DNA of 64,000 nt from an uncultured Nitrospiraceae bacterium (lineage in GTDB: Bacteria; Nitrospirota; Nitrospiria; Nitrospirales; Nitrospiraceae). A program made the position numbers and the translations under genes. This document shows positions 9,752 through 49,095 of this stretch, in pieces. The notes beneath the pieces are model-generated. The model saw only the letters and a list, made by a program, of their open reading frames with translations, did no database searches and was not told where the DNA came from. Position 1 is the stretch's first letter. Each line of letters opens with the position of its first letter. The stretch covers positions 220,792 through 284,791 of the forward strand of contig CAZKRM010000001.1 in NCBI GenBank assembly GCA_964555285.1. The letters are read 5' to 3'.

Positions 9752-10578
9752 GCATGGTTCTCACGAAGACGGGAGTTCTCTTTAGCCTCAGCGGCGAGCT
9801 GCGTTCGGAGAGTCTCGAGGCGTTGGAGATTCTCGCCGAGTTTCGGCAACCCGTACTTGCGGTCCATAGAGACCACTTGTTCCAGCAGATCGGCCGCTTC
9901 CCGGAGTCGGCCGAGCTCCTCATAGCATTGAGCGAGAAGATAGCGCGCGCCGCCCACCCGCAGTTCATCTTTGGTCCGCTCCGCGATGTCCAGGCTCGTC
10001 TTGCAGCAGGCCATCGCCTCATCGTAGCGCTTCTGCACGAGGAACGTCCGGCCCATCATCCGCCATGCATCGGCCACGCCTCCTTGGTTGCCCAGCCGCC
10101 GCATCAACACGAGCGACTGTTCGTAGTATTGCAGAGCATTCTCAAACTGGCCGGTCTCGCGCGCGACCAGGCCGAGATCGGAGAAGAGCACCGCCTTGCC
10201 CGCTTCATCATGGACCCTGGTCATGATATCGAGCGCTTCGAGGTAATAGGCACGCGCCCGCTCCCACTCGCCCGCATCGGCTCGGAGATTGCCCAAGTTC
10301 CCCAGCGTCGTCCCGATGCCCTTCTCATCGCCCAGGATCTTCTGAAGTTCCAGAACTTCATGATAATGATGTTGGGCGGAATCGCGGCGACCGCTCACCG
10401 CGCAGATATTGCCGAGATTGCCCAGCGTCGCAGCAAGCGAGCGCCGGTCTCCCAACAGCCGGTCGCACTCCAGCGCCTTCGCGTAGCAGGCATAGGCCTC
10501 GGTGTAGAGCCCTCTGGCGAAGTGCTCGTTGCCCTGGCGATTCAACTCTTCCGAGAGACCATTTCGCATCGGCATCAT
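9748..10578 (-). CDS. TPR repeat protein
   Basis: 276 aa of consecutive 40-residue TPR-like units (..LGNLGN...G....A...Y..AL.I...). Confidence 0.75.
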   Translation of the reverse strand: MMPMRNGLSEELNRQGNEHFARGLYTEAYACYAKALECDRLLGDRRSLAATLGNLGNICAVSGRRDSAQHHYHEVLELQKILGDEKGIGTTLGNLGNLRADAGEWERARAYYLEALDIMTRVHDEAGKAVLFSDLGLVARETGQFENALQYYEQSLVLMRRLGNQGGVADAWRMMGRTFLVQKRYDEAMACCKTSLDIAERTKDELRVGGARYLLAQCYEELGRLREAADLLEQVVSMDRKYGLPKLGENLQRLETLRTQLAAEAKENSRLRENHA

Positions 10579-32028: not shown

Positions 32029-32481
32029 TCAGCCCTCTCCCCATCCAGTGACATCGCCATACGCCCTCAGCAAATCCGACACCGACAGCACGCCGATGAT
32101 CGTCCCGTCTTCGGTCACCGGCAGGTGACGAATGCCGTGTTGTTTCATCAATGCAATGGCGGACGTGAGCGGCTCGCTGTCCTCGATCGTCACGACTGAC
32201 TTGCTCATGCAAGCCGTCACCGTCGTCGTGTTGGGATCGAGCCCGCGCGACACGGCCTTGCGGCTCAGGTCCGTGTCGGTGATGATCCCGATGTAGCGCG
32301 AGCCATCGTCCACCAAGAGCGAGCCGACCTTCCACTTCTGAAGAAGCCGCCCCGCCTCCTTGATCGTGGCCGCTCGATGGACGCTCCGCACATCGTGGCA
32401 CATATAGTCAGCCACCTTCATGTGTTCCAACGCGCGACCGTCGAGCGCCCCGTGACGCGTCGCGAGCACATCACGCTTCAC
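32029..32481 (-). CDS. CBS domain pair protein
   Basis: 150 aa, two CBS motifs (..GSLLVDD.., ..GIRHLPVTEDG.IIGVLSVSDLL). GTG start. Confidence 0.8.
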   Translation of the reverse strand: MKRDVLATRHGALDGRALEHMKVADYMCHDVRSVHRAATIKEAGRLLQKWKVGSLLVDDGSRYIGIITDTDLSRKAVSRGLDPNTTTVTACMSKSVVTIEDSEPLTSAIALMKQHGIRHLPVTEDGTIIGVLSVSDLLRAYGDVTGWGEG

Positions 32482-32594
32482 TTGGAGTTCAGAATGAATG
32501 GCTGGAACTTTTCCAACAGCTCGCGAAACCGCTCAATGTGTCGATTCACAAACACCCCTCGCGCAAATCCGGCCTTCACTTTCTTGGACATCAT
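32478..32594 (-). CDS. candidate 38-aa basic small protein, translationally coupled to the CBS gene
   Basis: Below the track size cutoff. My translation is MMSKKVKAGFARGVFVNRHIERFRELLEKFQPFILNSK. AAGGAG lies 6 nt upstream, and the stop overlaps the CBS GTG (GTGA). Confidence 0.4.
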   Translation of the reverse strand: MMSKKVKAGFARGVFVNRHIERFRELLEKFQPFILNSK

Positions 32595-32858: not shown

Positions 32859-33083
32859 TCAGTGCGGCCGATGATAGGCCACCAAGTACTCCGGTCCCAT
32901 GCGCCGCAACAACACGTGCCCCGCGCGGCTCAACCGGTCGACGGCGGCAAACATTTGAGCCCAACTCAGCCCGGATTGGGACGATAGCTCCTCAATGGTC
33001 AGGGGACCCCTCCTTTTTAACTCCGCGACAAGCTTCTCGTCCGTCAACAGCGACAGGTTGGGGAAATTGAGGGTGGCATTCAT
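32859..33083 (-). CDS. small protein P1 with WAQxxxAVDRLxRxG motif (possible winged-helix), paralog of 37492..37692
   Basis: 74 aa from ATG 33081-33083 (GGAGGT SD): MNATLNFPNLSLLTDEKLVAELKRRGPLTIEELSSQSGLSWAQMFAAVDRLSRAGHVLLRR.. The upstream part of the track ORF was discarded. Confidence 0.6.
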   Translation of the reverse strand: MNATLNFPNLSLLTDEKLVAELKRRGPLTIEELSSQSGLSWAQMFAAVDRLSRAGHVLLRRMGPEYLVAYHRPH

Positions 33084-33251
33084 GGTGACCTCCATCCGTA
33101 GCGGCGAGCGACATCGGTGCCAAATCGAGGGCAGGATCTTTCTAAAACATAGCCTAATCCAAAAAGGATAGGAGTCAAGGAATTCGAGGATAGGTGATTG
33201 TTCTCGCAGCAACGCCGCCTGCCTGTCTTCATATTTCTTCATTCTCTCCAA

Positions 33252-33350
33252 GCAGGGTGGCCTAGACTGCCCTTAGACTGCGCGCGTCCACCGAGCACCC
33301 TTCTGAGGGTGCGGGGTGCGCGAACATAAAGGGCGGCTAGGCCACCCTGC
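33252..33350 (+). repeat. REP-like element, copy G
   Basis: Arms GCAGGGTGGCCTAGACTGCCCTT / AAGGGCGGCTAGGCCACCCTGC. Core AGACTGCGCGCGTCCACCGAGCACCC TTCTGA GGGTGCGGGGTGCGCGAACA. Confidence 0.85.
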
Positions 33351-33353
33351 CCC

Positions 33354-34769
33354 TCATCCTCCGCCGCGCTTCCCCTGCATCTCCTTGTCGTAGAACTCCA
33401 ACATTTGGGCGATCTCCTCTTTCGTCAACCCCTTCTCCACCCATCGGTGGCTTTCCTGTGCAAGGAGATCCTTGGCGACTGCCGGCGAGAGCTCGCGCAC
33501 CATCGGCAGGAACTTCGTATAGAAATGCTTGGCGACTTCATAGAAGCCTTGCCAATGGACAAAGTCGGGAGCCATTTTGGAGAGCCCGTGCCTAGCACGT
33601 CGGCCTTCATGGTGCCACAGCTCGTAGAACACCCATTCGATCTCTTCGTCGAACGGCGTCGGCGTGATCTTCCCGAGTTCCCTCAGCCGATCCATCGCCA
33701 GCTTCGCCGGCTTCCCGAATTTTTCATTATAGAGCGTCACGCCGCTGTCCATTTGCGTGAAGAACCGTTCCACAATCTCTGCGCTATGGCAGGAGGAACA
33801 CACCTGCGTCATGGCCTTTCGTCGATCTTCGAAATTCTCCAGCCGCGTCGAGACCACCGGACGCAACGTCCAACTGATACGATCCCCCACGTCGTGCGTC
33901 ACCTCCTGCGTGCCGGTCGCACTCATGTGGCAGGTCGCGCAGGTGGGAAAGAGATAATCCTTGCCGGGCAGCCACTTCTCTTTTGGTTGGCCGAGCTTCA
34001 TCTTCTCTTTGTTCGCCGTGAACATCACGCCGTGTTTGCTCTCGTAATAGGCCTCGATCTGAGGATGATCCGGTCCCATATGGCAACGCCCGCAGCTCTC
34101 CGGCTGCCGGGCTTGAGCGACAGAGAAGCTGTGCCGCGCATGACAAGCCGAACACGTGCCCTTGGACCCATCCGGGTTCACCCTGCCGATTCCCGAGTTG
34201 GGCCACGTTGCCGGATGCAGCTTCCCCTTTTCCATGACCTTCACCACGCTTCCGTGACAGCCGGCACATCCGGTGGTGCCCACCTCCGGTCCTTCAACCA
34301 CATTGCCCAGGAAATTATCAAGCGAGCCGATGAATTGCGCCGCCTTCGCATGGTGGGACTTGCCGAATTCCTTGGCCTCCTTGTCGTGGCAGCGCATGCA
34401 ATCTTTCGGCGTCACCAGCGTGGAGATCAGCGTACCTTCATGGTCATAGGCATCCGCGTCGTCCTTCTCGGCGCGGTGGCACTCCACACAACCAATGCCC
34501 TTGGGCGCATGGTTGCTGACCTTCCAGTCGTTGATGCCGCCGACCGCCACATCTTTGGCCGTATGGCAATCGATGCACCGCTTGTTCTCAACGGAGATAA
34601 ACGGTCGAATCCCACCGCCACGCCGCTCTTCGACCTGGATGTACCCGACCCCCGTCAGCGCGAGGAACAACACCAGGCACAGCCCGCCGATCATGTACCG
34701 GGAAAAGTTGAGTTTCCCGTTCTGCGCGCGGCCTTCTTGTTCAGCCCGCTCTTCGCCAGGGTCTTGCAT
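33354..34769 (-). CDS. membrane-anchored octaheme cytochrome c (HAO/octaheme nitrite reductase family)
   Basis: Eight CxxCH motifs (CIDCH, CVECH, CMRCH, CAGCH, CSACH, CGRCH, CATCH, CSSCH), an N-terminal TM helix, and a C-terminal ELWHHEGRRARHG region as in the HAO family. Confidence 0.88.
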   Translation of the reverse strand: MQDPGEERAEQEGRAQNGKLNFSRYMIGGLCLVLFLALTGVGYIQVEERRGGGIRPFISVENKRCIDCHTAKDVAVGGINDWKVSNHAPKGIGCVECHRAEKDDADAYDHEGTLISTLVTPKDCMRCHDKEAKEFGKSHHAKAAQFIGSLDNFLGNVVEGPEVGTTGCAGCHGSVVKVMEKGKLHPATWPNSGIGRVNPDGSKGTCSACHARHSFSVAQARQPESCGRCHMGPDHPQIEAYYESKHGVMFTANKEKMKLGQPKEKWLPGKDYLFPTCATCHMSATGTQEVTHDVGDRISWTLRPVVSTRLENFEDRRKAMTQVCSSCHSAEIVERFFTQMDSGVTLYNEKFGKPAKLAMDRLRELGKITPTPFDEEIEWVFYELWHHEGRRARHGLSKMAPDFVHWQGFYEVAKHFYTKFLPMVRELSPAVAKDLLAQESHRWVEKGLTKEEIAQMLEFYDKEMQGKRGGG

Positions 34770-36331: not shown

Positions 36332-37492
36332 TTACCCTGTGTATCCTTTCTCCCCATGCTGGGTCAGATCCAACCCCATGATCTCGGCCTCCTCATCTAC
36401 ACGCGGCGACACGATTCGGCGGAGGATTGTCAGCAGGACGATCGTCATCCCTCCGGCCAGGACCCACACCGCCAGCACGGCGACTAATTGCGCAAAGAAC
36501 TGGTAGGGATAGCCATAGAACAACCCGTCGCTCCCGTCCGGATTCACCTCGGTCGACGCGAAGAGGCCTGTCGCAATCATGCCCCACGTTCCTCCGACCC
36601 CATGCATGCCGAACACATCCAGCGAGTCGTCATAGCCTAGAATGGGCTTCACGTAGTTCACGACCATGTAGCAGAGCCCGCCGGCCCCGATTCCGATGAC
36701 CACTGCCGACAGCGGCCCCACATAGCCCGCCGCCGGCGAGATGGCCACGAGTCCAGCCACCGCCCCGCTCACCATCCCCAAGGCAGTCGGCTTGTCCCGT
36801 TGCAGCCATTCGACCGCCATCCAGGCCAACGCGGCCGCTGCCGCCGAAACCTGAATCGCCACGAAGGCGCCGGTGACGGTCGTCATCGGCGTCAGCCCGG
36901 GACCGGCCGAGAAACCACACCATCCGACCCACAGAAAGCCGGCCCCGCAGAGCGAGAGCGGCAAATGATTCGGCATCATTTCGACCCGCCCATATCCTTT
37001 GCGTGGACCGATCGCGATCGCGGCCGCCAACGCGGCCACCCCCGCGCTGATGTGGATGACCGCCCCGCCGCCGAAATCGAGGCTCCCAAGGTTTGCGAGC
37101 CACCCGCCGCCCCAGAGCCAATTCGCAATCGGGCCGTACACGAGTCCCAGCCACAGAACGCCGAAGATGAGGAAGAACGAAAACCTAATTCGTTCGACGA
37201 GGGCTCCCGCCACCAGCGCCAGCGCGAGCGCGGCAGTCATGGTGTGATACAACCATCCCTCGCTCGACAGGCCCCCTGTCACATCGCCTGCCTCACGGCC
37301 AAACGTGAACGCCTCTCCCACGAGCAGCCATTCGAGCGAGGCCAGCACGAGCGCGGCAAAGACAAGCCCCACGGTGTTCAAGACATTTTTTTTCCGCACC
37401 ATCCCGCCATAGAACAGCGCCACGCCCGGGAGCGTCAGCATCACCAACATCGTCGAGAGCAGACGCCAGAGTGTGAGGTCGTGATCGGACAT
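36332..37492 (-). CDS. amt: ammonium transporter Amt (paralog 1, no signal peptide)
   Basis: Start moved to ATG 37490-37492 (MSDHDLTLWRLL..). Shows FYGGMVRKKN, DFGGGAVIHISAG and the GMHGVGGTWG motif. Confidence 0.92.
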   Translation of the reverse strand: MSDHDLTLWRLLSTMLVMLTLPGVALFYGGMVRKKNVLNTVGLVFAALVLASLEWLLVGEAFTFGREAGDVTGGLSSEGWLYHTMTAALALALVAGALVERIRFSFFLIFGVLWLGLVYGPIANWLWGGGWLANLGSLDFGGGAVIHISAGVAALAAAIAIGPRKGYGRVEMMPNHLPLSLCGAGFLWVGWCGFSAGPGLTPMTTVTGAFVAIQVSAAAAALAWMAVEWLQRDKPTALGMVSGAVAGLVAISPAAGYVGPLSAVVIGIGAGGLCYMVVNYVKPILGYDDSLDVFGMHGVGGTWGMIATGLFASTEVNPDGSDGLFYGYPYQFFAQLVAVLAVWVLAGGMTIVLLTILRRIVSPRVDEEAEIMGLDLTQHGEKGYTG

Positions 37493-37692
37493 CAGGCGAT
37501 TCCTCGGTTGCGCGAGACCGCATACGTGCGATCCGTCGAATGACTCGCGACCACTCCCGACCGACCCAATCGGTCCACGGCGAGATACGCTTGCGCCCAC
37601 CTCATGCCGGACCGTACGGCACGCTCATCGATCATCGGCAGCTCCGCTTCCTTCCACAATTCCCACGACAGGACTTCCGCGTCGCGTGTCAT
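37492..37692 (-). CDS. small protein P2 with WAQxxxAVDRLxRxG motif, wedged between two amt genes
   Basis: 66 aa MTRDAEVLSWELWKEAELPMIDERAVRSGMRWAQAYLAVDRLGRSGVVAS.. The ATG overlaps the upstream amt stop (ATGA), and the stop shares 1 nt with the downstream amt ATG (TGATG). About 36% identity to P1 over 44 aligned residues (my manual alignment). Confidence 0.55.
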   Translation of the reverse strand: MTRDAEVLSWELWKEAELPMIDERAVRSGMRWAQAYLAVDRLGRSGVVASHSTDRTYAVSRNRGIA

Positions 37693-39041
37693 GAGTAGGC
37701 TCGCTCGTTGTGCTGGCTCAAATCCAACCCCATTCGCTCTTCTTCCACCGTGACGCGCAGTCCGAGCAGACGGTCCACCCCTTTGAGAATGGCGTAGGTT
37801 CCAACCAAGGAAAACAGGGCCACGGCGAGAACCGCGAGCGCTTGCTTCCCGAACAAGAGCGGATTGCCGAAGAAGAGACCGTCGGCGCCTCCGACGTTCA
37901 TGGCTTTGCTGGCAAACAATCCCGTCGCCAACATCCCGACGACTCCCCCGACCCCATGAATCCCCACGACGTCGAGCGAGTCGTCGTACCCCCACTTCCC
38001 CTTCCACAGAATCGCCGCATAGCACAACCCTCCGGCGATCAGACCGATCAGGAGCGCGGAGAAAGGCCCGATGTAGCCGGCCCCAGGCGTGACCGTGGCC
38101 AAACCCGCGACGGCGCCGCTGGCCACACCTAGAACGGTCGGCGTTTTTCGATGGACCCATTCCACCAGCATCCAAGAGGCTGCCCCCGCCGCCGCCGCCG
38201 CATGCGTGGCCAGAAATGCCGCCACAGCCACGGAGTTCGCGCCGAGCGCGCTGCCGCCGTTGAAGCCGAACCAGCCGAACCACAGAAGCCCGGTTCCAAG
38301 GAGCGTCAACGGAAGACTATGCGGCGCCATATATTCGGTGCCGTATCCCTGACGTGGCCCCAGCATCAGCGCACAGACGAGCGCGGCCATGCCCGAACTG
38401 ATATGCACGACGGCGCCCCCGGCAAAGTCGAGCGCCCCCAACTTTCCCAGCCATCCACCCCCCCACAGCCAATGCGCGATCGGCGCGTACACGAGAAGAG
38501 ACCACAAGACGGTGAACAGCAGGAGCGCGCTGAACTTCATGCGCTCCGCAACGGCGCCCGTAATGAGCGCCGGGGTGATCGCTGCGAACATGAGCTGAAA
38601 CACCATGAAGGCTTGATGGGGAATGGTCGGCCCATAGGTGGGATGCGGGGTGAGTCCGACGCCACGTAACGCGATCCAGTCGAGCCCGCCGATCATCCCT
38701 TTGACATCCGGCCCGAACGCCAGACTGTAGCCGATGAGTATCCAGAGTATGCTCAACAGCGACAAAATGATGAAGCTATGGATAACCGTGCCCAACACGT
38801 TTTTGCTGCGGACCAGCCCGCCATAAAATAGGGCGAGCCCCGGGACGATCATCATGAGGACCAGCGCCGAGGAGGCCAGAACCCAGGCGGTGTCACCCGC
38901 ACTGATCGCAGCCGGCACCGGCGAGACAACCGAGGATACGGATGACACCGTTTCCTGTGCCCACCCGCTGATCGCGCTGACCAACAGCGCGATGCAGAAC
39001 AGCAGTGCGAATCCCCTGATCGTCCGCTTCCCTGTGCCCAT
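37689..39041 (-). CDS. amt: ammonium transporter Amt (paralog 2, with signal peptide)
   Basis: Start at ATG 39039-39041 (AAGGAG SD): MGTGKRTIRGFALLFCIALLVSA.. Shows FYGGLVRSKN, DFAGGAVVHISSG and GIHGVGGVVG. Confidence 0.93.
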   Translation of the reverse strand: MGTGKRTIRGFALLFCIALLVSAISGWAQETVSSVSSVVSPVPAAISAGDTAWVLASSALVLMMIVPGLALFYGGLVRSKNVLGTVIHSFIILSLLSILWILIGYSLAFGPDVKGMIGGLDWIALRGVGLTPHPTYGPTIPHQAFMVFQLMFAAITPALITGAVAERMKFSALLLFTVLWSLLVYAPIAHWLWGGGWLGKLGALDFAGGAVVHISSGMAALVCALMLGPRQGYGTEYMAPHSLPLTLLGTGLLWFGWFGFNGGSALGANSVAVAAFLATHAAAAAGAASWMLVEWVHRKTPTVLGVASGAVAGLATVTPGAGYIGPFSALLIGLIAGGLCYAAILWKGKWGYDDSLDVVGIHGVGGVVGMLATGLFASKAMNVGGADGLFFGNPLLFGKQALAVLAVALFSLVGTYAILKGVDRLLGLRVTVEEERMGLDLSQHNERAYS

Positions 39042-39130
39042 ACATGCTCCTTCTTGATCTGTGTCGGCGTCGCTCACTCATGCCCCCGTGCGACGGAGAC
39101 CCCGCCGCACAACTGTCACTCCACGAATGA

Positions 39131-41375: not shown

Positions 41376-41415
41376 CGCTCCTCCGGAAGGATAACGTGTG
41401 CCTTTTTACTCGTTT

Positions 41416-42744
41416 CTACATGCTGTGAATCTTGAAGCTCTTGACGTACGCGTCTGCCTGGTCCGGATCAAACACCCTCTCCATGATCGTATGTTTCATG
41501 GAGGCGGCCTGATGCGTCGGATACCCGAGTTCCTTGGCGATGCGGTCGCAGTCCGCCGCCCGGTACACCTGCTCGGCCACCGCTTTGTAATTCACTTCGC
41601 CCTTGAGGTGCCCCCACCGCTTCATTTGAGTGAGTATCCAGATGGCCATGGAATGCCACGGGTAGGGATCGAAGTCGATACGGTTCGGCTCTTTCTTGAT
41701 ATTCCCCAGTCCATCGGCGTACGTGCCGGTCAACACCTGCTCCAGCACGGTCACCGGTTGATTCAGATAATTCGTCGGCGCGATCGCGGCGGCGATTTCC
41801 TTGCGATGCGCTGGATCGGACGCATAGTGGGTGGCATCCACGATCGCCCGCCACATCGCGAGGAACGTATTCGGATAGCCGAGGGCAAACTCTTTCGTCA
41901 CGGTAAAGGCGCAACAGGGGTGCCGATCCCAGATTTCCTTCGACAGTTTGTAGATGAATCCGACGTTCTCGTAGACCGCCCGCTGATTGAACGGGTCCGG
42001 CCCCAGATACCCGTCCACGTTGCCGGCCTTCAAGTTCGCGACCATTTCGGGCGGCGGCACCACCCGGATCTGCACGTCCTTGTCCGGATGTACCCCGCCC
42101 TCGGCGAGAAAGTAACGGAGCAGGTAATTGTGCATCGAGAAATCGAACGGCACGCAGAAGCGGAACCCTTTCATATCAGCCGCGGTCTTGACGTCCTTGT
42201 GCTTCACGTGCAACGTGATGGCCTGGCCGTTGATGTTCTCCACCGCCGGCATATAAATCGGAGTCGGCACCGACCCAGCCCCGAGCGTGATGGCCAAGGG
42301 CATCGGAGTCAGCATGTGCGCCGCATCGACTTCCTTATTCACGGTCCAATCGCGGATCATCGCCCAGCCCGCCGCGCGTTTGACCGACGCATTGAGCCCA
42401 TGCTTTTTGTAGAAGCCCAGCGGCTCCGCCATGATGATCGGCGTCCCGCACGTAATCGGAATAAAACCGATACTGACGTCTTTCTTCTCCGGCTTGCCCA
42501 CCGGATCGGCGGCAAACGCTTTCATCCTGTCCCACGGGAGCACCTCCCCGATGACCGCCATCAGAGCCGCGGTGCCAAGTCCTGTCAGGAACTGTCGGCG
42601 CGAGGGGGGAGCCGCCCTGAGGACCGCCGCAATCACCGTTTGCTCCACGGCTCGGTTACAATACTGCTCGGACGAAAGGGCCTCCGGGGTCAACCTCGTG
42701 TCGGGCTCCTCCGGAATCGGCGATGTGTTCGTTTTGTCCGTCAT
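41416..42744 (-). CDS. periplasmic substrate-binding protein, NrtA/CynA family, Tat signal
   Basis: Start moved to ATG 42742-42744 (GGAGG SD). SRRQFLTGLGTAALMAV is a twin-arginine signal. Confidence 0.88.
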   Translation of the reverse strand: MTDKTNTSPIPEEPDTRLTPEALSSEQYCNRAVEQTVIAAVLRAAPPSRRQFLTGLGTAALMAVIGEVLPWDRMKAFAADPVGKPEKKDVSIGFIPITCGTPIIMAEPLGFYKKHGLNASVKRAAGWAMIRDWTVNKEVDAAHMLTPMPLAITLGAGSVPTPIYMPAVENINGQAITLHVKHKDVKTAADMKGFRFCVPFDFSMHNYLLRYFLAEGGVHPDKDVQIRVVPPPEMVANLKAGNVDGYLGPDPFNQRAVYENVGFIYKLSKEIWDRHPCCAFTVTKEFALGYPNTFLAMWRAIVDATHYASDPAHRKEIAAAIAPTNYLNQPVTVLEQVLTGTYADGLGNIKKEPNRIDFDPYPWHSMAIWILTQMKRWGHLKGEVNYKAVAEQVYRAADCDRIAKELGYPTHQAASMKHTIMERVFDPDQADAYVKSFKIHSM

Positions 42745-42886
42745 CGTGCCCTCCTCGGTCGTGCATGCCATGCTGCATGCACACAGTACCCTCGCTGCGA
42801 GAGTTGTTGCTTGTCGTTTGCGCGCCGTCGTTTCTCCGGAACTCGGAACGACTGCGACCCTATTCTCTTCCAAATCGCCGGATATT

Positions 42887-42930
42887 CAAAACAAAAAGGC
42901 GTCCTTCCCCCAACGAAGGGAAAGGACGCC
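42887..42930 (-). terminator. rho-independent terminator downstream of glnA
   Basis: Minus strand: GGCGTCCTTTCCC TTCGTT GGGGAAGGACGCC followed by TTTTTGTTTTG, preceded by GGACAAC. Confidence 0.85.
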
Positions 42931-43068
42931 GTTGTCCGTTCTCGATCAGTTTCCCGGAGCCAGAAGCGGAAACGCCCTTGTCGCCGCAACCGACGTTCTC
43001 CTTGTAGCACGAACCGCATTGCAGCTCAAGCCCCCTGCGTGGGGGGAACGAGCCGGCGACACGATCGC

Positions 43069-44478
43069 CTACGCGTCGTAGTAGAGGAAGAACTCGTATG
43101 GATGCGGCCGCAAGCGCAGCGTATCCACCTCTTTGCTCCGCTTGTAGCCGATCCAGGTTTCGATCAGATCCTCCGTGAACACCCCGCCCTTGAGCAGGAA
43201 TTGATGGTCCTTTTCGAGATGCGTGAGGGCTTCGTCCAGGCTGCCGGGCATCGTGCGAATCTTGGCGGCTTCTTTGGCCTCCAGATCGTACAGATCCTTT
43301 TCACCCGGCTCTCCCGGATTGATCTTGTTCTCGATCCCGTCGAGACCGGCCATAAGCATCGCTGGAAAGGCGATGTAGGGATTGCAGGCCGGATCCGGGA
43401 ACCGCACTTCGATCCGCTTGGCTTTAGGGCTCGGCGAGTACATCGGGATTCGGATCCCCGCAGACCGGTTGCGACTCGAGTAGGCCAACAGGACCGGCGC
43501 TTCAAAGCCGGGCGTCAGCCGCTTATACGAGTTCGTCGTCGGGTTCGTGAATGCGGCGAGCGCCGGTGCATGCTTCAGAATCCCACCGATGTAATGGAGG
43601 CACATTTGCGAGACGCCTGCGTATTCCTTCCCCGCAAACAACGGCTTCCCGTCCTTCCAGATACTCTGATGGGTGTGCATGCCGGACCCGTTGTCTCCGA
43701 AGATGGGCTTCGGCATGAACGTGACCGTCTTCCCATGCCGGCGGGCCACGTTCTTGACGATGTACTTGTACATCATCATCTTGTCCGCCATCTTGAGGAG
43801 CGAATCGAAACGGACATCGATTTCCGCCTGCCCCGCGGTCGCGACCTCGTGGTGATGCTTCTCGACTGCAATACCGGCCTTTTCCATCTCCAGAATCATC
43901 TCGCTACGGATATCTTGCTGCGTGTCGGTCGGCGCCACGGGGAAGTAGCCTTCCTTGGGGCGGATTTTCCCGCCCAGATTGATCCCCTCTTGGCCCATGT
44001 TCCAGACGCCTTCCTCCGAATCGATATAGTAGTAGCCGCTGTGACTCGTCTGATCGTACCGCGCATGATCGAAGATGAAGAACTCGGCTTCCGGCCCCCA
44101 AAAGGACGTGTCGCCGATCTTCGTGCTCTTGAGATACTGTTCAGCTTTCTGCGCGATGAACCGTGGATCGCGGTCGTAGTTTTCGCGCGTGATCGGATCG
44201 ACCGTGTTGCAGACCATGCTCAAGGTCGGCACGGCGGCAAACGGGTCCAAGCAGGCCGTATTCGGATCGGGCATGGCCAGCATGTCGCTGTTGTTGATCG
44301 CTTTCCAGCCCCGTATGGATGATCCATCGAACCCGGACCCGTCTTTGAACAGATCCTCGCTGAGTTCCGATACCGGGATACTGAAATGCTGCCACGTGCC
44401 GAGCAAATCCACGAATTTCAAATCAACGATCTGGACCTTGTTCTTCTTTGCAAACTCCAACACCTCCCGAACGTTCAT
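43069..44478 (-). CDS. glnA: glutamine synthetase type I GlnA
   Basis: 469 aa. The adenylylation-site context GEKDLYDLE retains the Tyr (E. coli NLYDLP). AAGGAGGAGGGG SD. Confidence 0.97.
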
Positions 44479-44531: not shown

Positions 44532-47662
<3,131 letters not shown>

Positions 47663-47673
47663 GACCTGCTCCT

Positions 47674-49005
47674 TCACGAATACGCTCGCTCATTATGCTG
47701 GGTCAAATCCAACCCGGTCGCTTCTTGTTCTTGCGAGACACGCAAACCGACCGAGCCGTCCACAAGTTTGAGGATCACATAGGTTCCGACAAATGAGAAC
47801 ACGATCGTGGAAAAGACCGCGACCGCCTGAAGACCGAACTGTCCGGGGTTCCCAAAGAAAAATCCGTCGGCGCCGGCCGGATTGAGTGCCTTAGACGCAA
47901 ACAGCCCTGTCGCCAGCATCCCCAGAATGCCGCCCACACCGTGGGTTCCCATCACGTCGAGCGTGTCATCATAGCCGATCTCGCCCTTCCACACAATTGC
48001 GAGATAGGAGAGTCCGCCGGCAGCCGCTCCAATAACCATCGCGGGGATCGGCTCAATAAACCCGGCCCCAGCCGTCGAAGTGGCTAAGCCGGTCACGGCA
48101 CCGCTGGCGATCCCCAGCACGGTGGGCTTCCCGCGATGCATCCATTCCACCGTCATCCAGGCCAGCGCGGCACTGGCTGCTGCAAGGTGGGTGACGGTGA
48201 TCGCCCCCGCTGCAATCGCGTTCGCCCCTCGGGCGCTCCCGCCGTTGAATCCAAACCACCCCAACCAGAGTAGCCCCGCCCCCAAGAGCACGTACGGGAG
48301 GTTGTGCGGAGCCATATAATCCGTTCTCCACCCGTGCCGCTTTCCCAGGACGATCGCACAGGCCAGAGCGCTCACGCCTGAACCGATGTGCACCACCGAC
48401 CCGCCGGCAAAATCCAACGCGCCGAGCTTGCTCAACCATCCCCCGCCCCACACCCAATGGGCCAACGGGGCATAGACAACGATCGTCCATAGACCTGTAA
48501 AGAGAAGCATCGCGCTGAATTTCATGCGCTCGGCGAACGCACCCGCGATGAGCGCCGGGGTGAAGGCGGCAAAGAGCAACTGAAACAACATGAAGGTTTC
48601 GTGTGGAATCGTCGGGGCGTATGTTGAATGCGGGGCGGCCCCCACACCGCTGAGCCCAACCCAGTCCAGTCCCCCGATGACGCCCCCACGATCCGGCCCG
48701 AAGGCGAGGCTGTACCCGCACAAGGCCCAAATGACGGTCACCAGGCAGAGGATGGCAAACACGTGGATCATCGTCCCTATGACGTTCTTGCTGCGGACCA
48801 TTCCTCCATAAAAAAAGGCCATCCCCGGCACGATCATGGCCAGGACCAACGCGCTGGCCGCCAGCATCCACGCCGTATCCCCGCTGTCGATTCCCGTGGC
48901 CATTGCCTTTCCTGCAATCTCCTGCGCCCCCGCCCCTGTCGCCCAGCCGGCCGGACTCATGACACCCCCCGTGATCAGCACACCGTACCGAGTCACTCTC
49001 GTCAT
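47674..49005 (-). CDS. amt: ammonium transporter Amt (paralog 3, with signal peptide), upstream of PII
   Basis: AAGGAGG SD followed by ATGATG; start at 49005 or 49008. Shows FYGGMVRSKN, DFAGGSVVHIGSG and GTHGVGGILG. Confidence 0.93.
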   Translation of the reverse strand: MTRVTRYGVLITGGVMSPAGWATGAGAQEIAGKAMATGIDSGDTAWMLAASALVLAMIVPGMAFFYGGMVRSKNVIGTMIHVFAILCLVTVIWALCGYSLAFGPDRGGVIGGLDWVGLSGVGAAPHSTYAPTIPHETFMLFQLLFAAFTPALIAGAFAERMKFSAMLLFTGLWTIVVYAPLAHWVWGGGWLSKLGALDFAGGSVVHIGSGVSALACAIVLGKRHGWRTDYMAPHNLPYVLLGAGLLWLGWFGFNGGSARGANAIAAGAITVTHLAAASAALAWMTVEWMHRGKPTVLGIASGAVTGLATSTAGAGFIEPIPAMVIGAAAGGLSYLAIVWKGEIGYDDTLDVMGTHGVGGILGMLATGLFASKALNPAGADGFFFGNPGQFGLQAVAVFSTIVFSFVGTYVILKLVDGSVGLRVSQEQEATGLDLTQHNERAYS

Positions 49006-49095
49006 CATGGCCTCCTTCCCCACTCCATGTGCACAACCTGGTTCGGTGCCGGCCTCAGTCTGCGTTGGCTCCGCTGTTGCTAGATTCGTCGCTCG

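What the first reader, a model, noticed from the sequence alone, without database searches (positions are those of the whole stretch)
37492..37692. Small conserved protein translationally wedged between two amt genes, with a paralog after the octaheme cytochrome gene
The 200-nt gap between Amt paralogs 2 and 1 encodes a 66-aa ORF. Its ATG overlaps the upstream amt stop (ATGA) and its TGA shares a base with the downstream amt ATG (TGATG). Its core, SGMRWAQAYLAVDRLGRSGVV, matches SGLSWAQMFAAVDRLSRAGHV in a 74-aa ORF at 32859-33083, which has its own GGAGG SD and is the next gene after the octaheme cytochrome. The two are about 36% identical over 44 aligned residues by my manual alignment. The pattern looks like a winged-helix recognition segment. 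Two paralogs embedded in one long nitrogen-assimilation transcription unit suggest an undescribed accessory or regulatory component of ammonium uptake and nitrite reduction. Only the third amt is next to PII.
Basis: partly seen in the sequence, partly recalled or inferred. Interest (0 to 1): 0.65.

Follow-up and report, generated by a model that had tools for sequence, protein, structure and literature searches.

The report
Tiny winged-helix genes in Nitrospira nitrogen locus
The small reading frame wedged between two ammonium-transporter genes, and its paralog after the octaheme cytochrome gene, are real genes of an uncharacterised family of miniature winged-helix proteins found only in Nitrospira nitrifiers; they are candidate nitrogen regulators, but their function is untested.

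Summary
sORF-A (37492-37692, 66 aa) overlaps the amt2 stop (ATGA) and the amt1 start (TGATG). sORF-B (32859-33083, 74 aa) is 40% identical to it over 58 residues (E 7e-10).

Both belong to a Nitrospira-restricted family of 66-120 aa winged-helix proteins with the motif SWxQVFxAVDRLSRxG. The family has at least 655 clusters, all labelled hypothetical, and reaches no Pfam or NCBIfam threshold. Its nearest relatives are Lrp/AsnC, MarR and ArsR HTH domains, all weakly.

sORF-B evolves slowly and has its own invariant sigma-70-type promoter. In every Nitrospira lineage retrieved here it lies near glnE and a glnD-like gene, and only in this clade next to the octaheme reductase gene. So it is not part of one long transcript.

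sORF-A orthologs sit directly upstream of amt1 in seven other loci, six full-length and one truncated. Six of the seven are tightly coupled to the amt1 start. They are under purifying selection where that can be measured (omega 0.14), diverge fast, and are mostly acidic. A gene at the same position in N. moscoviensis (NITMOv2_1277, sequence not compared) is transcribed at about the level of the transporter gene downstream of it (AmtB_3).

Best reading: small nitrogen-locus regulators. Whether they bind DNA or proteins is open.

The parts
37492..37692 (-). sORF-A: 66-aa divergent member of the Nitrospira mini winged-helix family, translationally coupled to amt2 upstream and amt1 downstream
   Evidence: Translation and overlaps. 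BLASTP against sORF-B gives E 7e-10. Family HMM 86 bits, with sORF-A included in the model. AF2 winged helix, pLDDT 73.4. Codon LLR is positive only in this frame. Positional orthologs in L001, L005, L009, L079-L082.
37689..39077 (-). amt2, an ammonium transporter; its stop overlaps the sORF-A start (ATGA)
   Evidence: Pfam Ammonium_transp 2.2e-124; sequence.
36332..37492 (-). amt1, an ammonium transporter that by position corresponds to AmtB_3 of N. moscoviensis; its ATG shares one base with the sORF-A stop (TGATG)
   Evidence: Pfam Ammonium_transp 1.4e-100, domain from residue 9; sequence; locus order in PMC6606698.
35885..36328 (-). Rieske Fe-S subunit gene of the putative octaheme-nitrite-reductase-associated Rieske/cytochrome b complex
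   Evidence: Pfam Rieske; PMC6606698.
34782..35819 (-). cytochrome b subunit gene
   Evidence: Pfam Cytochrome_B 5.4e-48.
33354..34769 (-). octaheme cytochrome c gene (putative assimilatory nitrite reductase, ONR)
   Evidence: Pfam Multi-haem_cyto 7.4e-32; ONR literature.
33330..33348 (-). terminator-like GC-rich hairpin directly after the octaheme gene stop
   Evidence: Consensus scan: 8 pairs, 6 of them GC. This is a pattern match only and the T-tail is weak.
33151..33178 (-). sORF-B's own sigma-70-type promoter: -35 TTGACT (33178-33173), 16-nt spacer, -10 TAGGCT (33156-33151)
   Evidence: CTTGACTCC is invariant, and positions T1, A2 and T6 of the -10 are conserved, in 15 genomes with different upstream genes. 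Coordinates. The window's -10 is too weak to pass the consensus scanner.
33089..33093 (-). Shine-Dalgarno GGAGG of sORF-B, 5 nt before the ATG
   Evidence: Sequence. GGAGG-type sites precede nearly all of the roughly 85 family members examined.
32859..33083 (-). sORF-B: 74-aa slow-evolving core member of the family
   Evidence: 22 homologs at 63-85% identity. AF2 pLDDT 80.6. omega 0.12-0.25. Orthologs lie in the nitrogen-regulatory cluster in loci L001-L022.
47219..49023 (-). amt3 (47674-49023) and a PII gene (47219-47557), the only amt-PII pair in the window
   Evidence: ORF translations; phmmer map.

Best explanation
Both ORFs are genuine protein-coding genes of an uncurated family of miniature stand-alone winged-helix proteins. 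So far the family has been found only in Nitrospira and related Nitrospiraceae.

Shown:
- The fold is a bare winged helix (H1-b1-H2-H3-wing) with no oligomerisation or ligand-binding domain. At sequence level it is closest, weakly, to the N-terminal HTH of Lrp/AsnC regulators.
- sORF-B is the conserved, slowly evolving copy. It is a self-contained unit with its own sigma-70-type promoter, about 90 nt of leader and a strong ribosome-binding site. It stays within a few kb of glnE and a glnD-like gene in every Nitrospira lineage retrieved here.
- sORF-A is a rapidly diverging, sORF-B-like copy fixed directly upstream of amt1. In most genomes its stop overlaps or abuts the amt1 start codon.

Inferred:
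- sORF-B is a small DNA-binding transcription factor for nitrogen-assimilation genes.
- The stop/start overlap means ribosomes finishing sORF-A re-initiate on amt1, so the two products are made from one message in a coupled ratio.
- sORF-A is a local regulator or adaptor of the amt1-Rieske-cytochrome b-octaheme reductase module, placed like the first-gene repressor of an ArsR-type transporter operon.
- Whether it acts on DNA or on a protein partner is unresolved.
For: Genes are real:
- BLASTP of A against B gives E 7e-10.
- Codon-usage LLR is positive only in the annotated frames.
- GGAGG-type sites precede nearly all family members.
- sORF-B has omega 0.12-0.25. sORF-A-type genes show omega 0.14-0.25 among L079, L080 and L082. 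The closest pair has codon-position differences of 17/5/30.
- The identical sORF-A gene was called independently on a second assembly of the same strain.
- The positional counterpart in N. moscoviensis, NITMOv2_1277, overlaps the AmtB_3 start by 4 nt. Its mean expression is 381, against 552 for AmtB_3 and 147 for AmtB_2 (PMC6606698 supplement).

Fold and kinship:
- AF2 predicts a winged helix for both.
- Foldseek matches Zalpha, ArsR/SmtB and MarR domains at TM 0.6-0.79.
- Pfam HTH_24 scores 20.7 bits and MarR 20.5 bits, both just below cut-off.
- A family profile matches Lrp/AsnC HTH domains in the PDB at E 0.018.

Family and taxonomy:
- At least 655 clusters match the family profile.
- All 66 genome loci found are from Nitrospira, Nitrospiraceae or Nitrospirota.

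Context:
- sORF-B lies in the glnE / glnD-like cluster in L001-L022, with an invariant promoter.
- sORF-A-type genes lie directly upstream of amt1 in eight loci including the window. The junction is an overlap or a 2-nt gap in seven of the eight.
- The wing tip carries conserved basic residues in sORF-B and most paralogs (alignments).
- An imperfect inverted repeat, GATCAT-N8-ATGATC, overlaps the sORF-B promoter in several lineages.
Against: - There is no direct evidence of DNA binding or of any regulatory effect.
- The proteins lack the dimerisation elements that MarR, ArsR and Lrp proteins use.
- sORF-A-type proteins are mostly acidic (pI 4.6-5.4), with zero or negative net charge on helix 3 plus wing. 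That is unusual for a DNA reader.
- Helix 3 is nearly invariant across paralogs in unrelated contexts. This fits a shared partner or a structural role better than diverse operator specificities.
- The window's own sORF-A is the most divergent copy. It keeps 11 of 19 near-invariant family positions and has lost the basic wing tip. No close relative exists to measure its present constraint.
- One species (L005) keeps only a 39-aa C-terminal half.
- One relative (L083) has the amt1-reductase module with no sORF-A at all.
- No promoter-like site was found just upstream of sORF-A in the window.
Confidence: 0.5

Rival explanations
1. The proteins do not read DNA. They are protein-binding winged-helix adaptors. 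sORF-A would be made together with Amt1 and would gate or tether the transporter (a stand-in for GlnK, which amt1 and amt2 lack) or the reductase complex. sORF-B would modulate GlnE, the GlnD-like enzyme or PII.
For: - sORF-A-type proteins are acidic, with a neutral or negative helix 3 and wing.
- sORF-A occupies the position immediately upstream of amt, and is translationally coupled to it, as glnK is in glnK-amtB operons (the operon order is established knowledge; junctions).
- Only amt3 has a PII neighbour.
- More distant relatives carry PII-amt-amt-Rieske-cytochrome b-octaheme with no winged-helix gene (L084, L085).
- Near-invariance of helix 3 across paralogs suggests one shared partner surface.
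- There are no dimerisation elements.
- Small winged-helix proteins that act on proteins are known, for example DsrD on DsrAB and PapI on Lrp (from my own knowledge).
Against:
- The fold and the weak sequence hits all point to DNA-binding HTH families.
- sORF-B and most paralogs are mildly basic with a basic wing tip.
- sORF-A diverges quickly while Amt1 is conserved at 70-81%. That is hard to square with a tight conserved interface.
Confidence: 0.25
2. In this genome sORF-A is a decaying duplicate whose protein no longer matters. What selection keeps is an open, translated frame ending at the amt1 start, so that ribosomes are delivered to amt1.
For: - Comparisons of the window's sORF-A with its orthologs give omega 0.3-1.0, with differences spread almost evenly over codon positions.
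- It keeps only 11 of 19 near-invariant family positions.
- L005 keeps only a 39-aa tail but still has the TGATG junction.
- The stop/start junction is the most conserved feature across loci.
- sORF-A members are closer to sORF-B than to each other.
Against: - The window copy keeps the signature W, VDRL-R-G and Y residues, a full-length frame, normal GC3 and codon usage and a confident winged-helix prediction.
- sORF-A-type genes in L079, L080 and L082 are clearly under purifying selection, omega 0.14-0.25.
- dS is saturated in all comparisons involving the window, so its high omega values are unreliable.
Confidence: 0.15
3. The 200-nt interval is non-coding spacer and the ORF is a chance open frame in GC-rich DNA.
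For: The frame stays open for 263 codons into amt2, showing that long spurious ORFs occur here. phmmer with sORF-A alone against 1.8 billion representatives finds no significant relative.
Against: - Significant similarity to sORF-B and to the family profile.
- Frame-specific codon usage.
- Homologous ORFs in the same frame relation to amt1 in seven other loci, under purifying selection in the closest pairs.
Confidence: 0.02

Closest known systems
Lrp/AsnC-family N-terminal winged HTH domain (Pfam HTH_24 / HTH_AsnC-type)
   Same: It gives the best sequence-level matches: HTH_24 at E 3e-4, M. tuberculosis LrpA and E. coli Lrp DNA-binding domains at E 0.018-0.24, and NCBIfam Lrp at E 0.018. The helix pattern is shared (D..I...L...G..T..EL), and so is R-L...G-v at the end of helix 3. 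Lrp proteins regulate amino-acid and nitrogen metabolism.
   Different: Scores fall below Pfam's cut-off (20.7 against 21.9 bits). The C-terminal RAM/ACT-like effector and oligomerisation domain is absent. The SWxQVFxAVDRLSR signature is specific to this family.
ArsR/SmtB and MarR small winged-helix repressors (for example CadC, CzrA, HlyU, SqrR, OhrR)
   Same: They are top Foldseek matches, TM 0.6-0.74. Genetically they are a small winged-helix gene placed first in an operon and often coupled to a transporter gene (arsR-arsB, cadC-cadA, czrA-czrB; from my own knowledge), as sORF-A is before amt1.
   Different: The flanking dimerisation helices and the metal- or ligand-sensing sites are missing, because the proteins are only 66-80 aa. 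Pfam MarR is below cut-off (20.5 against 24.6), and HTH_20 appears only at E 0.07 in one member.
Minimal stand-alone winged-helix domains: Zalpha (ADAR1/PKZ), DsrD, PapI/FaeA
   Same: Size (60-80 aa) and a bare H1-H2-H3-wing architecture are shared. Zalpha is the best full-length structural match, TMq 0.75 and TMt 0.89. DsrD is likewise a tiny winged-helix protein encoded beside a multi-haem/sirohaem reductase, and it acts on the enzyme rather than on DNA (from my own knowledge).
   Different: Identity to Zalpha is 11-15%. No Z-DNA context exists. DsrD and PapI were not recovered among the listed matches. The adjacency of sORF-B to the reductase is not conserved outside this clade.
GlnK (PII), the usual genetic partner of amt genes
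   Same: Position only: a small gene immediately upstream of an amt gene and co-expressed with it.
   Different: The fold is unrelated: winged helix rather than a ferredoxin-like trimer with a T-loop. A true PII gene is present next to amt3.

Membership tests
Winged-helix (wHTH) fold superfamily | Topology H1-b1-H2-H3-b2-b3, with helix 3 packed on H1/H2 and a b-hairpin wing | tested here: met
   AF2 for sORF-B: H7-25, short strand 28-29, H30-37, H41-53, E57-62, E65-70, pLDDT 80.6. sORF-A has the same order, pLDDT 73.4. Foldseek probability is 1.00 to many wHTH structures.
Lrp/AsnC family | N-terminal HTH_24 / HTH_AsnC-type domain above Pfam's gathering score | tested here: not met
   sORF-B scores 20.7 bits on HTH_24 against a cut-off of 21.9, and 15.7 on HTH_AsnC-type against 27. 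sORF-A has no hit. Only 5 of 24 family members touch HTH_24 at E below 0.1.
Lrp/AsnC family | C-terminal RAM (AsnC_trans_reg) effector-binding and oligomerisation domain | tested here: not met
   The proteins end 4-10 residues after the wing at 66-80 aa. No such Pfam hit was found.
MarR family | MarR/MarR_2 domain above threshold, plus N- and C-terminal dimerisation helices (about 140-aa proteins) | tested here: not met
   MarR scores 20.5 bits against a cut-off of 24.6. The length is 66-74 aa and the model shows only the wHTH core.
ArsR/SmtB family | HTH_5 / HTH_20 domain with alpha1 and alpha5 dimer helices and metal or thiol sensing sites | tested here: not met
   No HTH_5 hit. HTH_20 appears in 1 of 24 members at E 0.07. 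Structural overlap covers the core only, TMt about 0.5.
PII / GlnK (amt partner) | P-II domain (PF00543), ferredoxin-like fold with T-loop | tested here: not met
   No P-II hit for either ORF. The genuine PII gene is at 47219-47557.
Zalpha Z-DNA-binding domains | Conserved Asn/Tyr in helix 3 and Pro-Pro-x-Trp in the wing that contact Z-DNA | tested here: inconclusive
   The structural match is good (TMq 0.75) but identity is 11-15%. By inspection, helix 3 (SWAQMFAAVDRLS) and the wing lack the N/Y and PPxW pattern. No residue-level superposition was available.
DsrD-like reductase-associated winged-helix proteins | Conserved adjacency to, and action on, a reductase; sequence similarity to DsrD | tested here: not met
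   Adjacency to the octaheme gene holds only in the window's clade (L001, L005, L009). It is absent in L004 and L010-L022 and in N. moscoviensis. Similarity to DsrD itself was not tested.
Nitrospira mini-wHTH family (defined here) | 60-120 aa protein from Nitrospiraceae with the helix 3 signature W-x-Q-[VM]-F-x-x-[VI]-D-[RH]-L-S-R-x-G and an aromatic residue in strand b3 | tested here: met
   sORF-B matches fully. sORF-A keeps W32, V39-D40-R41-L42, R44, G46 and Y57. HMM scores are 138 bits for B and 86 bits for A, with both in the model.

The most novel reading that the evidence does not exclude
sORF-A is not a transcription factor. It would be a GlnK-replacing winged-helix adaptor, made in a coupled ratio with Amt1, that binds the transporter or the neighbouring quinol-linked octaheme nitrite reductase complex and tunes ammonium flux. 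More broadly, the near-invariant helix 3 of the whole Nitrospira family would be a docking surface for one shared cellular partner. The paralogs would then form a lineage-specific signalling layer downstream of two-component systems and PII-modifying enzymes.
Probability: 0.12. Interest if true: 0.8.

Novelty: new variant of a known kind. Interest (0 to 1): 0.5.

Why it matters
Nitrospira are the main nitrite oxidisers, and as comammox also complete nitrifiers, in soils, waters and treatment plants. My two literature searches turned up no description of a dedicated transcription factor for their nitrogen assimilation.

- sORF-B is a small, strongly conserved winged-helix gene that sits beside glnE and a glnD-like gene in every Nitrospira lineage retrieved here. 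That makes it a concrete, testable candidate for such a regulator.
- sORF-A is a divergent copy coupled to the transporter gene that feeds periplasmically produced ammonium into the cell. It offers a handle on why the amt paralogs are expressed so differently in N. moscoviensis (PMC6606698).
- The family has at least 655 sequence clusters, several paralogs per genome, and no Pfam or NCBIfam model. Defining it would improve annotation of every Nitrospira genome.
- If the proteins prove to act on proteins rather than DNA, this would be a new type of partner for Amt transporters.

Tried and rejected
- **Longer amt1:** an amt1 starting at GTG 37600 would make the gap part of the transporter. The 36-aa extension is not signal-peptide-like, and the Pfam domain begins at residue 9 of the ATG-37492 product. 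Rejected.
- **Single-sequence searches with sORF-A:** the word-indexed search found only the protein itself. Exhaustive phmmer against 1.8 billion representatives found itself plus one spurious hit, P0144, a 2243-aa MBG-repeat secreted protein. Orthologs were recovered through synteny instead.
- **Structured RNA or riboswitch:** Rfam found nothing between 27 and 50 kb. The sORF-B leader has no conserved fold, -0.84 kcal/mol.
- **Sigma-54 promoters in the window:** 17 matches to the pattern against 28 expected by chance. The 1-mismatch site in the sORF-B leader is not conserved in relatives. Rejected.
- **Consensus promoter scan near sORF-A and sORF-B:** it returned nothing. The sORF-B promoter was recognised only through cross-genome conservation.
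- **NCBIfam:** no family.
- **Shared operator motif across paralog upstream regions:** only blocks shared by descent within subgroups were seen, and nothing was common with sORF-B. This was not pursued.
- **Organism identity:** the only other contig carrying sORF-A is 100% identical and unnamed.
Full report
**1. What is in the sequence**

All genes of the region lie on the minus strand. Window 37692->37492 encodes a 66-aa protein, called sORF-A here. Its ATG overlaps the TGA of the upstream ammonium-transporter gene amt2 (37689-39077) as ATGA. Its TGA shares one base with the ATG of the downstream transporter gene amt1 (36332-37492) as TGATG.

Pfam places the Amt domain at residues 9-384 of the amt1 product started at that ATG. 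The alternative upstream GTG would add 36 residues that do not resemble a signal peptide. The 200-nt interval is therefore not part of amt1.

Window 33083->32859 encodes a 74-aa protein, sORF-B. GGAGG lies 5 nt before its ATG. BLASTP of A against B gives 40% identity over 58 residues, E 7e-10.

The surrounding minus-strand array is:
- nadE, amt3, PII, glnD, glnA
- an nrtA/cynA-like binding-protein gene, the permease gene and the ATPase gene
- cynS, amt2, sORF-A, amt1
- Rieske, cytochrome b, octaheme cytochrome c
- sORF-B, a CBS-domain gene

A glnD/glnE-like gene (plus strand), glnE and groEL follow. Up to the octaheme gene this is the order published for Nitrospira moscoviensis (PMC6606698).

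**2. Are they genes?**

An open frame alone is weak evidence here. GC is 60%, and the sORF-A frame stays open for 263 codons into amt2. Independent evidence follows.

- **Composition.** GC by codon position for sORF-A is 0.64/0.52/0.71, like its neighbours. A codon-usage log-likelihood trained on the large genes of the locus is positive only in the annotated frame, for both ORFs.
- **sORF-B homologs.** There are 22 homologs at 63-85% identity.
- **Synteny of sORF-A.** Related contigs carry a homologous ORF in exactly the sORF-A position:
  - L001, 66 aa
  - L009, 68 aa
  - L005, a truncated 39-aa version
  - metagenome loci L079, L080, L082 and L081, 74-77 aa
- **Selection.** Among the closer pairs the signature is clearly coding. 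L079-L080 gives omega 0.14, with 17, 5 and 30 differences at codon positions 1, 2 and 3. L080-L082 gives 0.15 and L079-L082 gives 0.25. sORF-B has omega 0.12-0.25, and the neighbouring genes 0.04-0.19.
- **Ribosome-binding sites.** Nearly all of the roughly 85 family members examined have a GGAGG-type site at the right distance.
- **Transcription in N. moscoviensis.** A 231-nt 'hypothetical protein' gene (NITMOv2_1277 / RS05920, 1200875-1201105) overlaps the start of AmtB_3 (1201102) by 4 nt. Its mean expression is 381. AmtB_3 downstream is 552 and AmtB_2 upstream is 147.

**3. What family?**

A profile of diverse members retrieves at least 655 protein clusters. Where a source gives a name, it is 'hypothetical protein' from Nitrospira or Nitrospiraceae, or occasionally a generic regulator label. 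A scan of one genome per prokaryotic species returned 66 loci, all from Nitrospira, Nitrospiraceae or Nitrospirota MAGs, with up to six copies per assembly. The search patterns were family-specific, so restriction to this lineage is supported but not proven.

Members are 66-120 aa and share the signature (Y)SW(A/N)QVF(A/S)AVDRLSRxG. No Pfam or NCBIfam model reaches its threshold. The best scores are HTH_24 at 20.7 bits (cut-off 21.9), MarR at 20.5 (cut-off 24.6) and TrmB at 17. A family profile against PDB sequences finds Lrp/AsnC HTH domains at E 0.018-0.24.

AlphaFold2 predicts a canonical winged helix for sORF-B (pLDDT 80.6) and sORF-A (pLDDT 73.4). Foldseek matches Zalpha, ArsR/SmtB and MarR domains at TM 0.6-0.79. 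The signature motif is helix 3 plus the turn into the wing. The proteins consist of the winged-helix core and nothing else.

**4. Context of sORF-B**

In the window's clade (L001, L005/L008, L009) the order is octaheme gene, sORF-B, CBS gene, glnD-like gene (opposite strand), glnE, groEL.

The other Nitrospira lineages retrieved include N. lenta and the RSF/CG24 MAGs (the latter comammox types to my knowledge). There the order is glnD, glnA..., glnD-like gene (opposite strand), glnE, sORF-B, groEL. In L004 sORF-B follows glnA. In N. moscoviensis the gene after the reductase encodes a DUF1348 protein.

So the conserved partners of sORF-B are the glnE / glnD-like regulatory genes, not the reductase.

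Upstream of sORF-B, 15 genomes share an invariant CTTGACTCC, then a 16-nt spacer, then TA(A/C/G)(G/A)(A/C)T. This lies about 90 nt before the start codon, whatever gene is upstream. In the window the -35 is at 33178-33173 and the -10 at 33156-33151. A terminator-like hairpin at 33348-33330 follows the octaheme gene.

sORF-B is therefore its own transcription unit. Its leader has no conserved RNA fold and no Rfam match. In several lineages an imperfect inverted repeat, GATCAT-N8-ATGATC, overlaps the -10 and start region. That could be an operator.

**5. Context of sORF-A**

sORF-A-type genes occur only where the cynS-amt2-[sORF-A]-amt1-Rieske-cytochrome b-octaheme arrangement exists.

The junction of sORF-A with amt1:

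| Locus | Junction |
|---|---|
| window, L001, L005, L079 | TGATG |
| L009 | ATGATG |
| L082, N. moscoviensis | ATGA |
| L080 | 2-nt gap before a GTG start |
| L081 | 25-nt gap |

The upstream junction with amt2 varies from an ATGA overlap (window, L009) to a 236-nt gap (L079). The invariant relation is therefore sORF-A to amt1.

L083 has amt1-Rieske-cytochrome b-octaheme without amt2 or sORF-A. There amt1 is preceded by a perfect sigma-54 promoter, TGGCAC-N5-TTGC. More distant Amt relatives (about 50% identity; L084, L085) show PII-amt-amt-Rieske-cytochrome b(-octaheme) with no winged-helix gene.

sORF-A-type proteins diverge four to five times faster than sORF-B at non-synonymous sites: dN 0.43-0.93 against 0.12-0.18. 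Most score higher against sORF-B than against each other. This fits fast-evolving duplicates of an sORF-B-like ancestor.

They are mostly acidic, pI 4.6-5.4. The window's copy (8.3) and L081 (9.4) are the exceptions, and sORF-B is at 8-9.5. The window's copy is the most divergent. It keeps 11 of 19 near-invariant positions, including W32, VDRL, R44, G46 and Y57, but has lost the Gly-Pro turn and the basic wing tip. All comparisons involving it are saturated, so its present constraint cannot be measured.

**6. Other paralogs**

Four of five look-ups placed non-nitrogen paralogs beside a PAS histidine kinase plus LuxR/GerE response regulator gene cluster, three of them directly downstream of the regulator gene. 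The cluster included CheB/CheR-type genes in three of the four. The fifth lay beside an ECF sigma / anti-sigma pair. The family as a whole lives in regulatory neighbourhoods.

**7. Mechanism**

Shown:
- Both ORFs are real genes.
- The predicted fold is a bare winged helix.
- sORF-B has an independent promoter and conserved linkage to glnE and the glnD-like gene.
- sORF-A has a conserved stop/start junction with amt1.

Inferred:
- sORF-B is a small DNA-binding regulator of nitrogen-assimilation genes.
- The junction couples translation of sORF-A and amt1.
- sORF-A is a local regulator or adaptor of the amt1-reductase module. Its placement resembles that of the small first-gene repressors of ArsR-type transporter operons.

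I put about 0.5 on this overall reading. Within it, the reality of the genes and their family assignment are above 0.9.

The main rival (0.25) is that these proteins bind other proteins, not DNA. The evidence for it:
- the acidity of sORF-A types
- the absence of dimerisation elements
- the near-invariant helix 3 across paralogs
- the GlnK-like position of sORF-A upstream of an amt gene that has no PII partner

A third reading (0.15) is that the window's sORF-A is a decaying copy retained only as a translated leader that delivers ribosomes to amt1. The truncated L005 version still has the TGATG junction, which points that way. Non-coding spacer is effectively excluded (0.02).

**8. Novelty and verdict**

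The fold and the general idea of a small winged-helix regulator in an operon are familiar. What is new is the family itself:
- It is lineage-restricted and multi-copy.
- It is absent from curated libraries.
- It is stripped to the bare domain.
- It has an unusually invariant helix 3.
- Two members are anchored in the nitrogen-assimilation supercluster of an ecologically central nitrifier.

I rate it a new variant of a known kind, of moderate interest. It is a good, testable candidate regulator, not a surprise in principle.

Noticed in passing
window 32035-32591 (minus strand): The CBS-domain gene downstream of sORF-B looks damaged or shortened compared with relatives of 259-263 aa. Residues 1-33 map to 32591-32493 in one frame and residues 110-262 to 32493-32035 in another. 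About 76 codons are missing and the frame changes. Only a 150-aa ORF (32029-32481) remains intact.
   Followed up: partly
L083 about 2440-2470, upstream of amt1: This relative carries amt1-Rieske-cytochrome b-octaheme but lacks both amt2 and sORF-A. It has a perfect sigma-54 promoter, TGGCACCTGTCTTGC, just upstream of amt1. No equivalent conserved site exists in the window.
   Followed up: partly
L005/L008 5470-5589: In Nitrospiraceae MAG PGF172224_bin_334 the sORF-A counterpart is only 39 aa (helix 3 plus wing; H1 and H2 deleted). It keeps a GGAGG site and the TGATG junction with amt1.
   Followed up: yes
L074, L077, L160, L161 (paralog loci); L075: Non-nitrogen paralogs of the family lie beside a PAS histidine kinase plus LuxR/GerE response regulator gene cluster in four of five look-ups, with CheB/CheR-type genes in three of them. 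The fifth lies next to an ECF sigma / anti-sigma pair. Two subgroups share an upstream block, TTGTCGATAGGG...CGGCTATAA, and one has a CTGTCGT-N7-ACGACAG palindrome.
   Followed up: partly
L014-L021 about 9880-9900; L010-L012 and L021 about 9925-9945 (upstream of sORF-B orthologs): A 12-bp palindrome, CGTGAATTCACG, abuts the -35 of the sORF-B promoter in one Nitrospira clade. An imperfect inverted repeat, GATCAT-N8-ATGATC, overlaps the -10 and start region in others. Both are possible regulator binding sites, and both are degenerate in the window.
   Followed up: no
L084, L085 (metagenome contigs; Amt about 50% identical): More distant organisms carry PII-amt-amt-Rieske-cytochrome b(-octaheme) with a PII gene in front of the amt pair and no winged-helix gene. 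The transporter-reductase module is thus older than the sORF-A insertion.
   Followed up: no
PMC6606698 supplementary table (N. moscoviensis NITMOv2_1275-1283): Expression rises from AmtB_2 (147) to the small hypothetical gene NITMOv2_1277 (381) and AmtB_3 (552). This suggests an internal promoter in front of the sORF-A counterpart in that species.
   Followed up: partly
window 41398-44322 (plus strand): A 974-aa open frame lies antisense to glnA and the nrtA/cynA-like gene and has no Pfam hit. It is most likely a GC-rich shadow ORF and not a gene.
   Followed up: no
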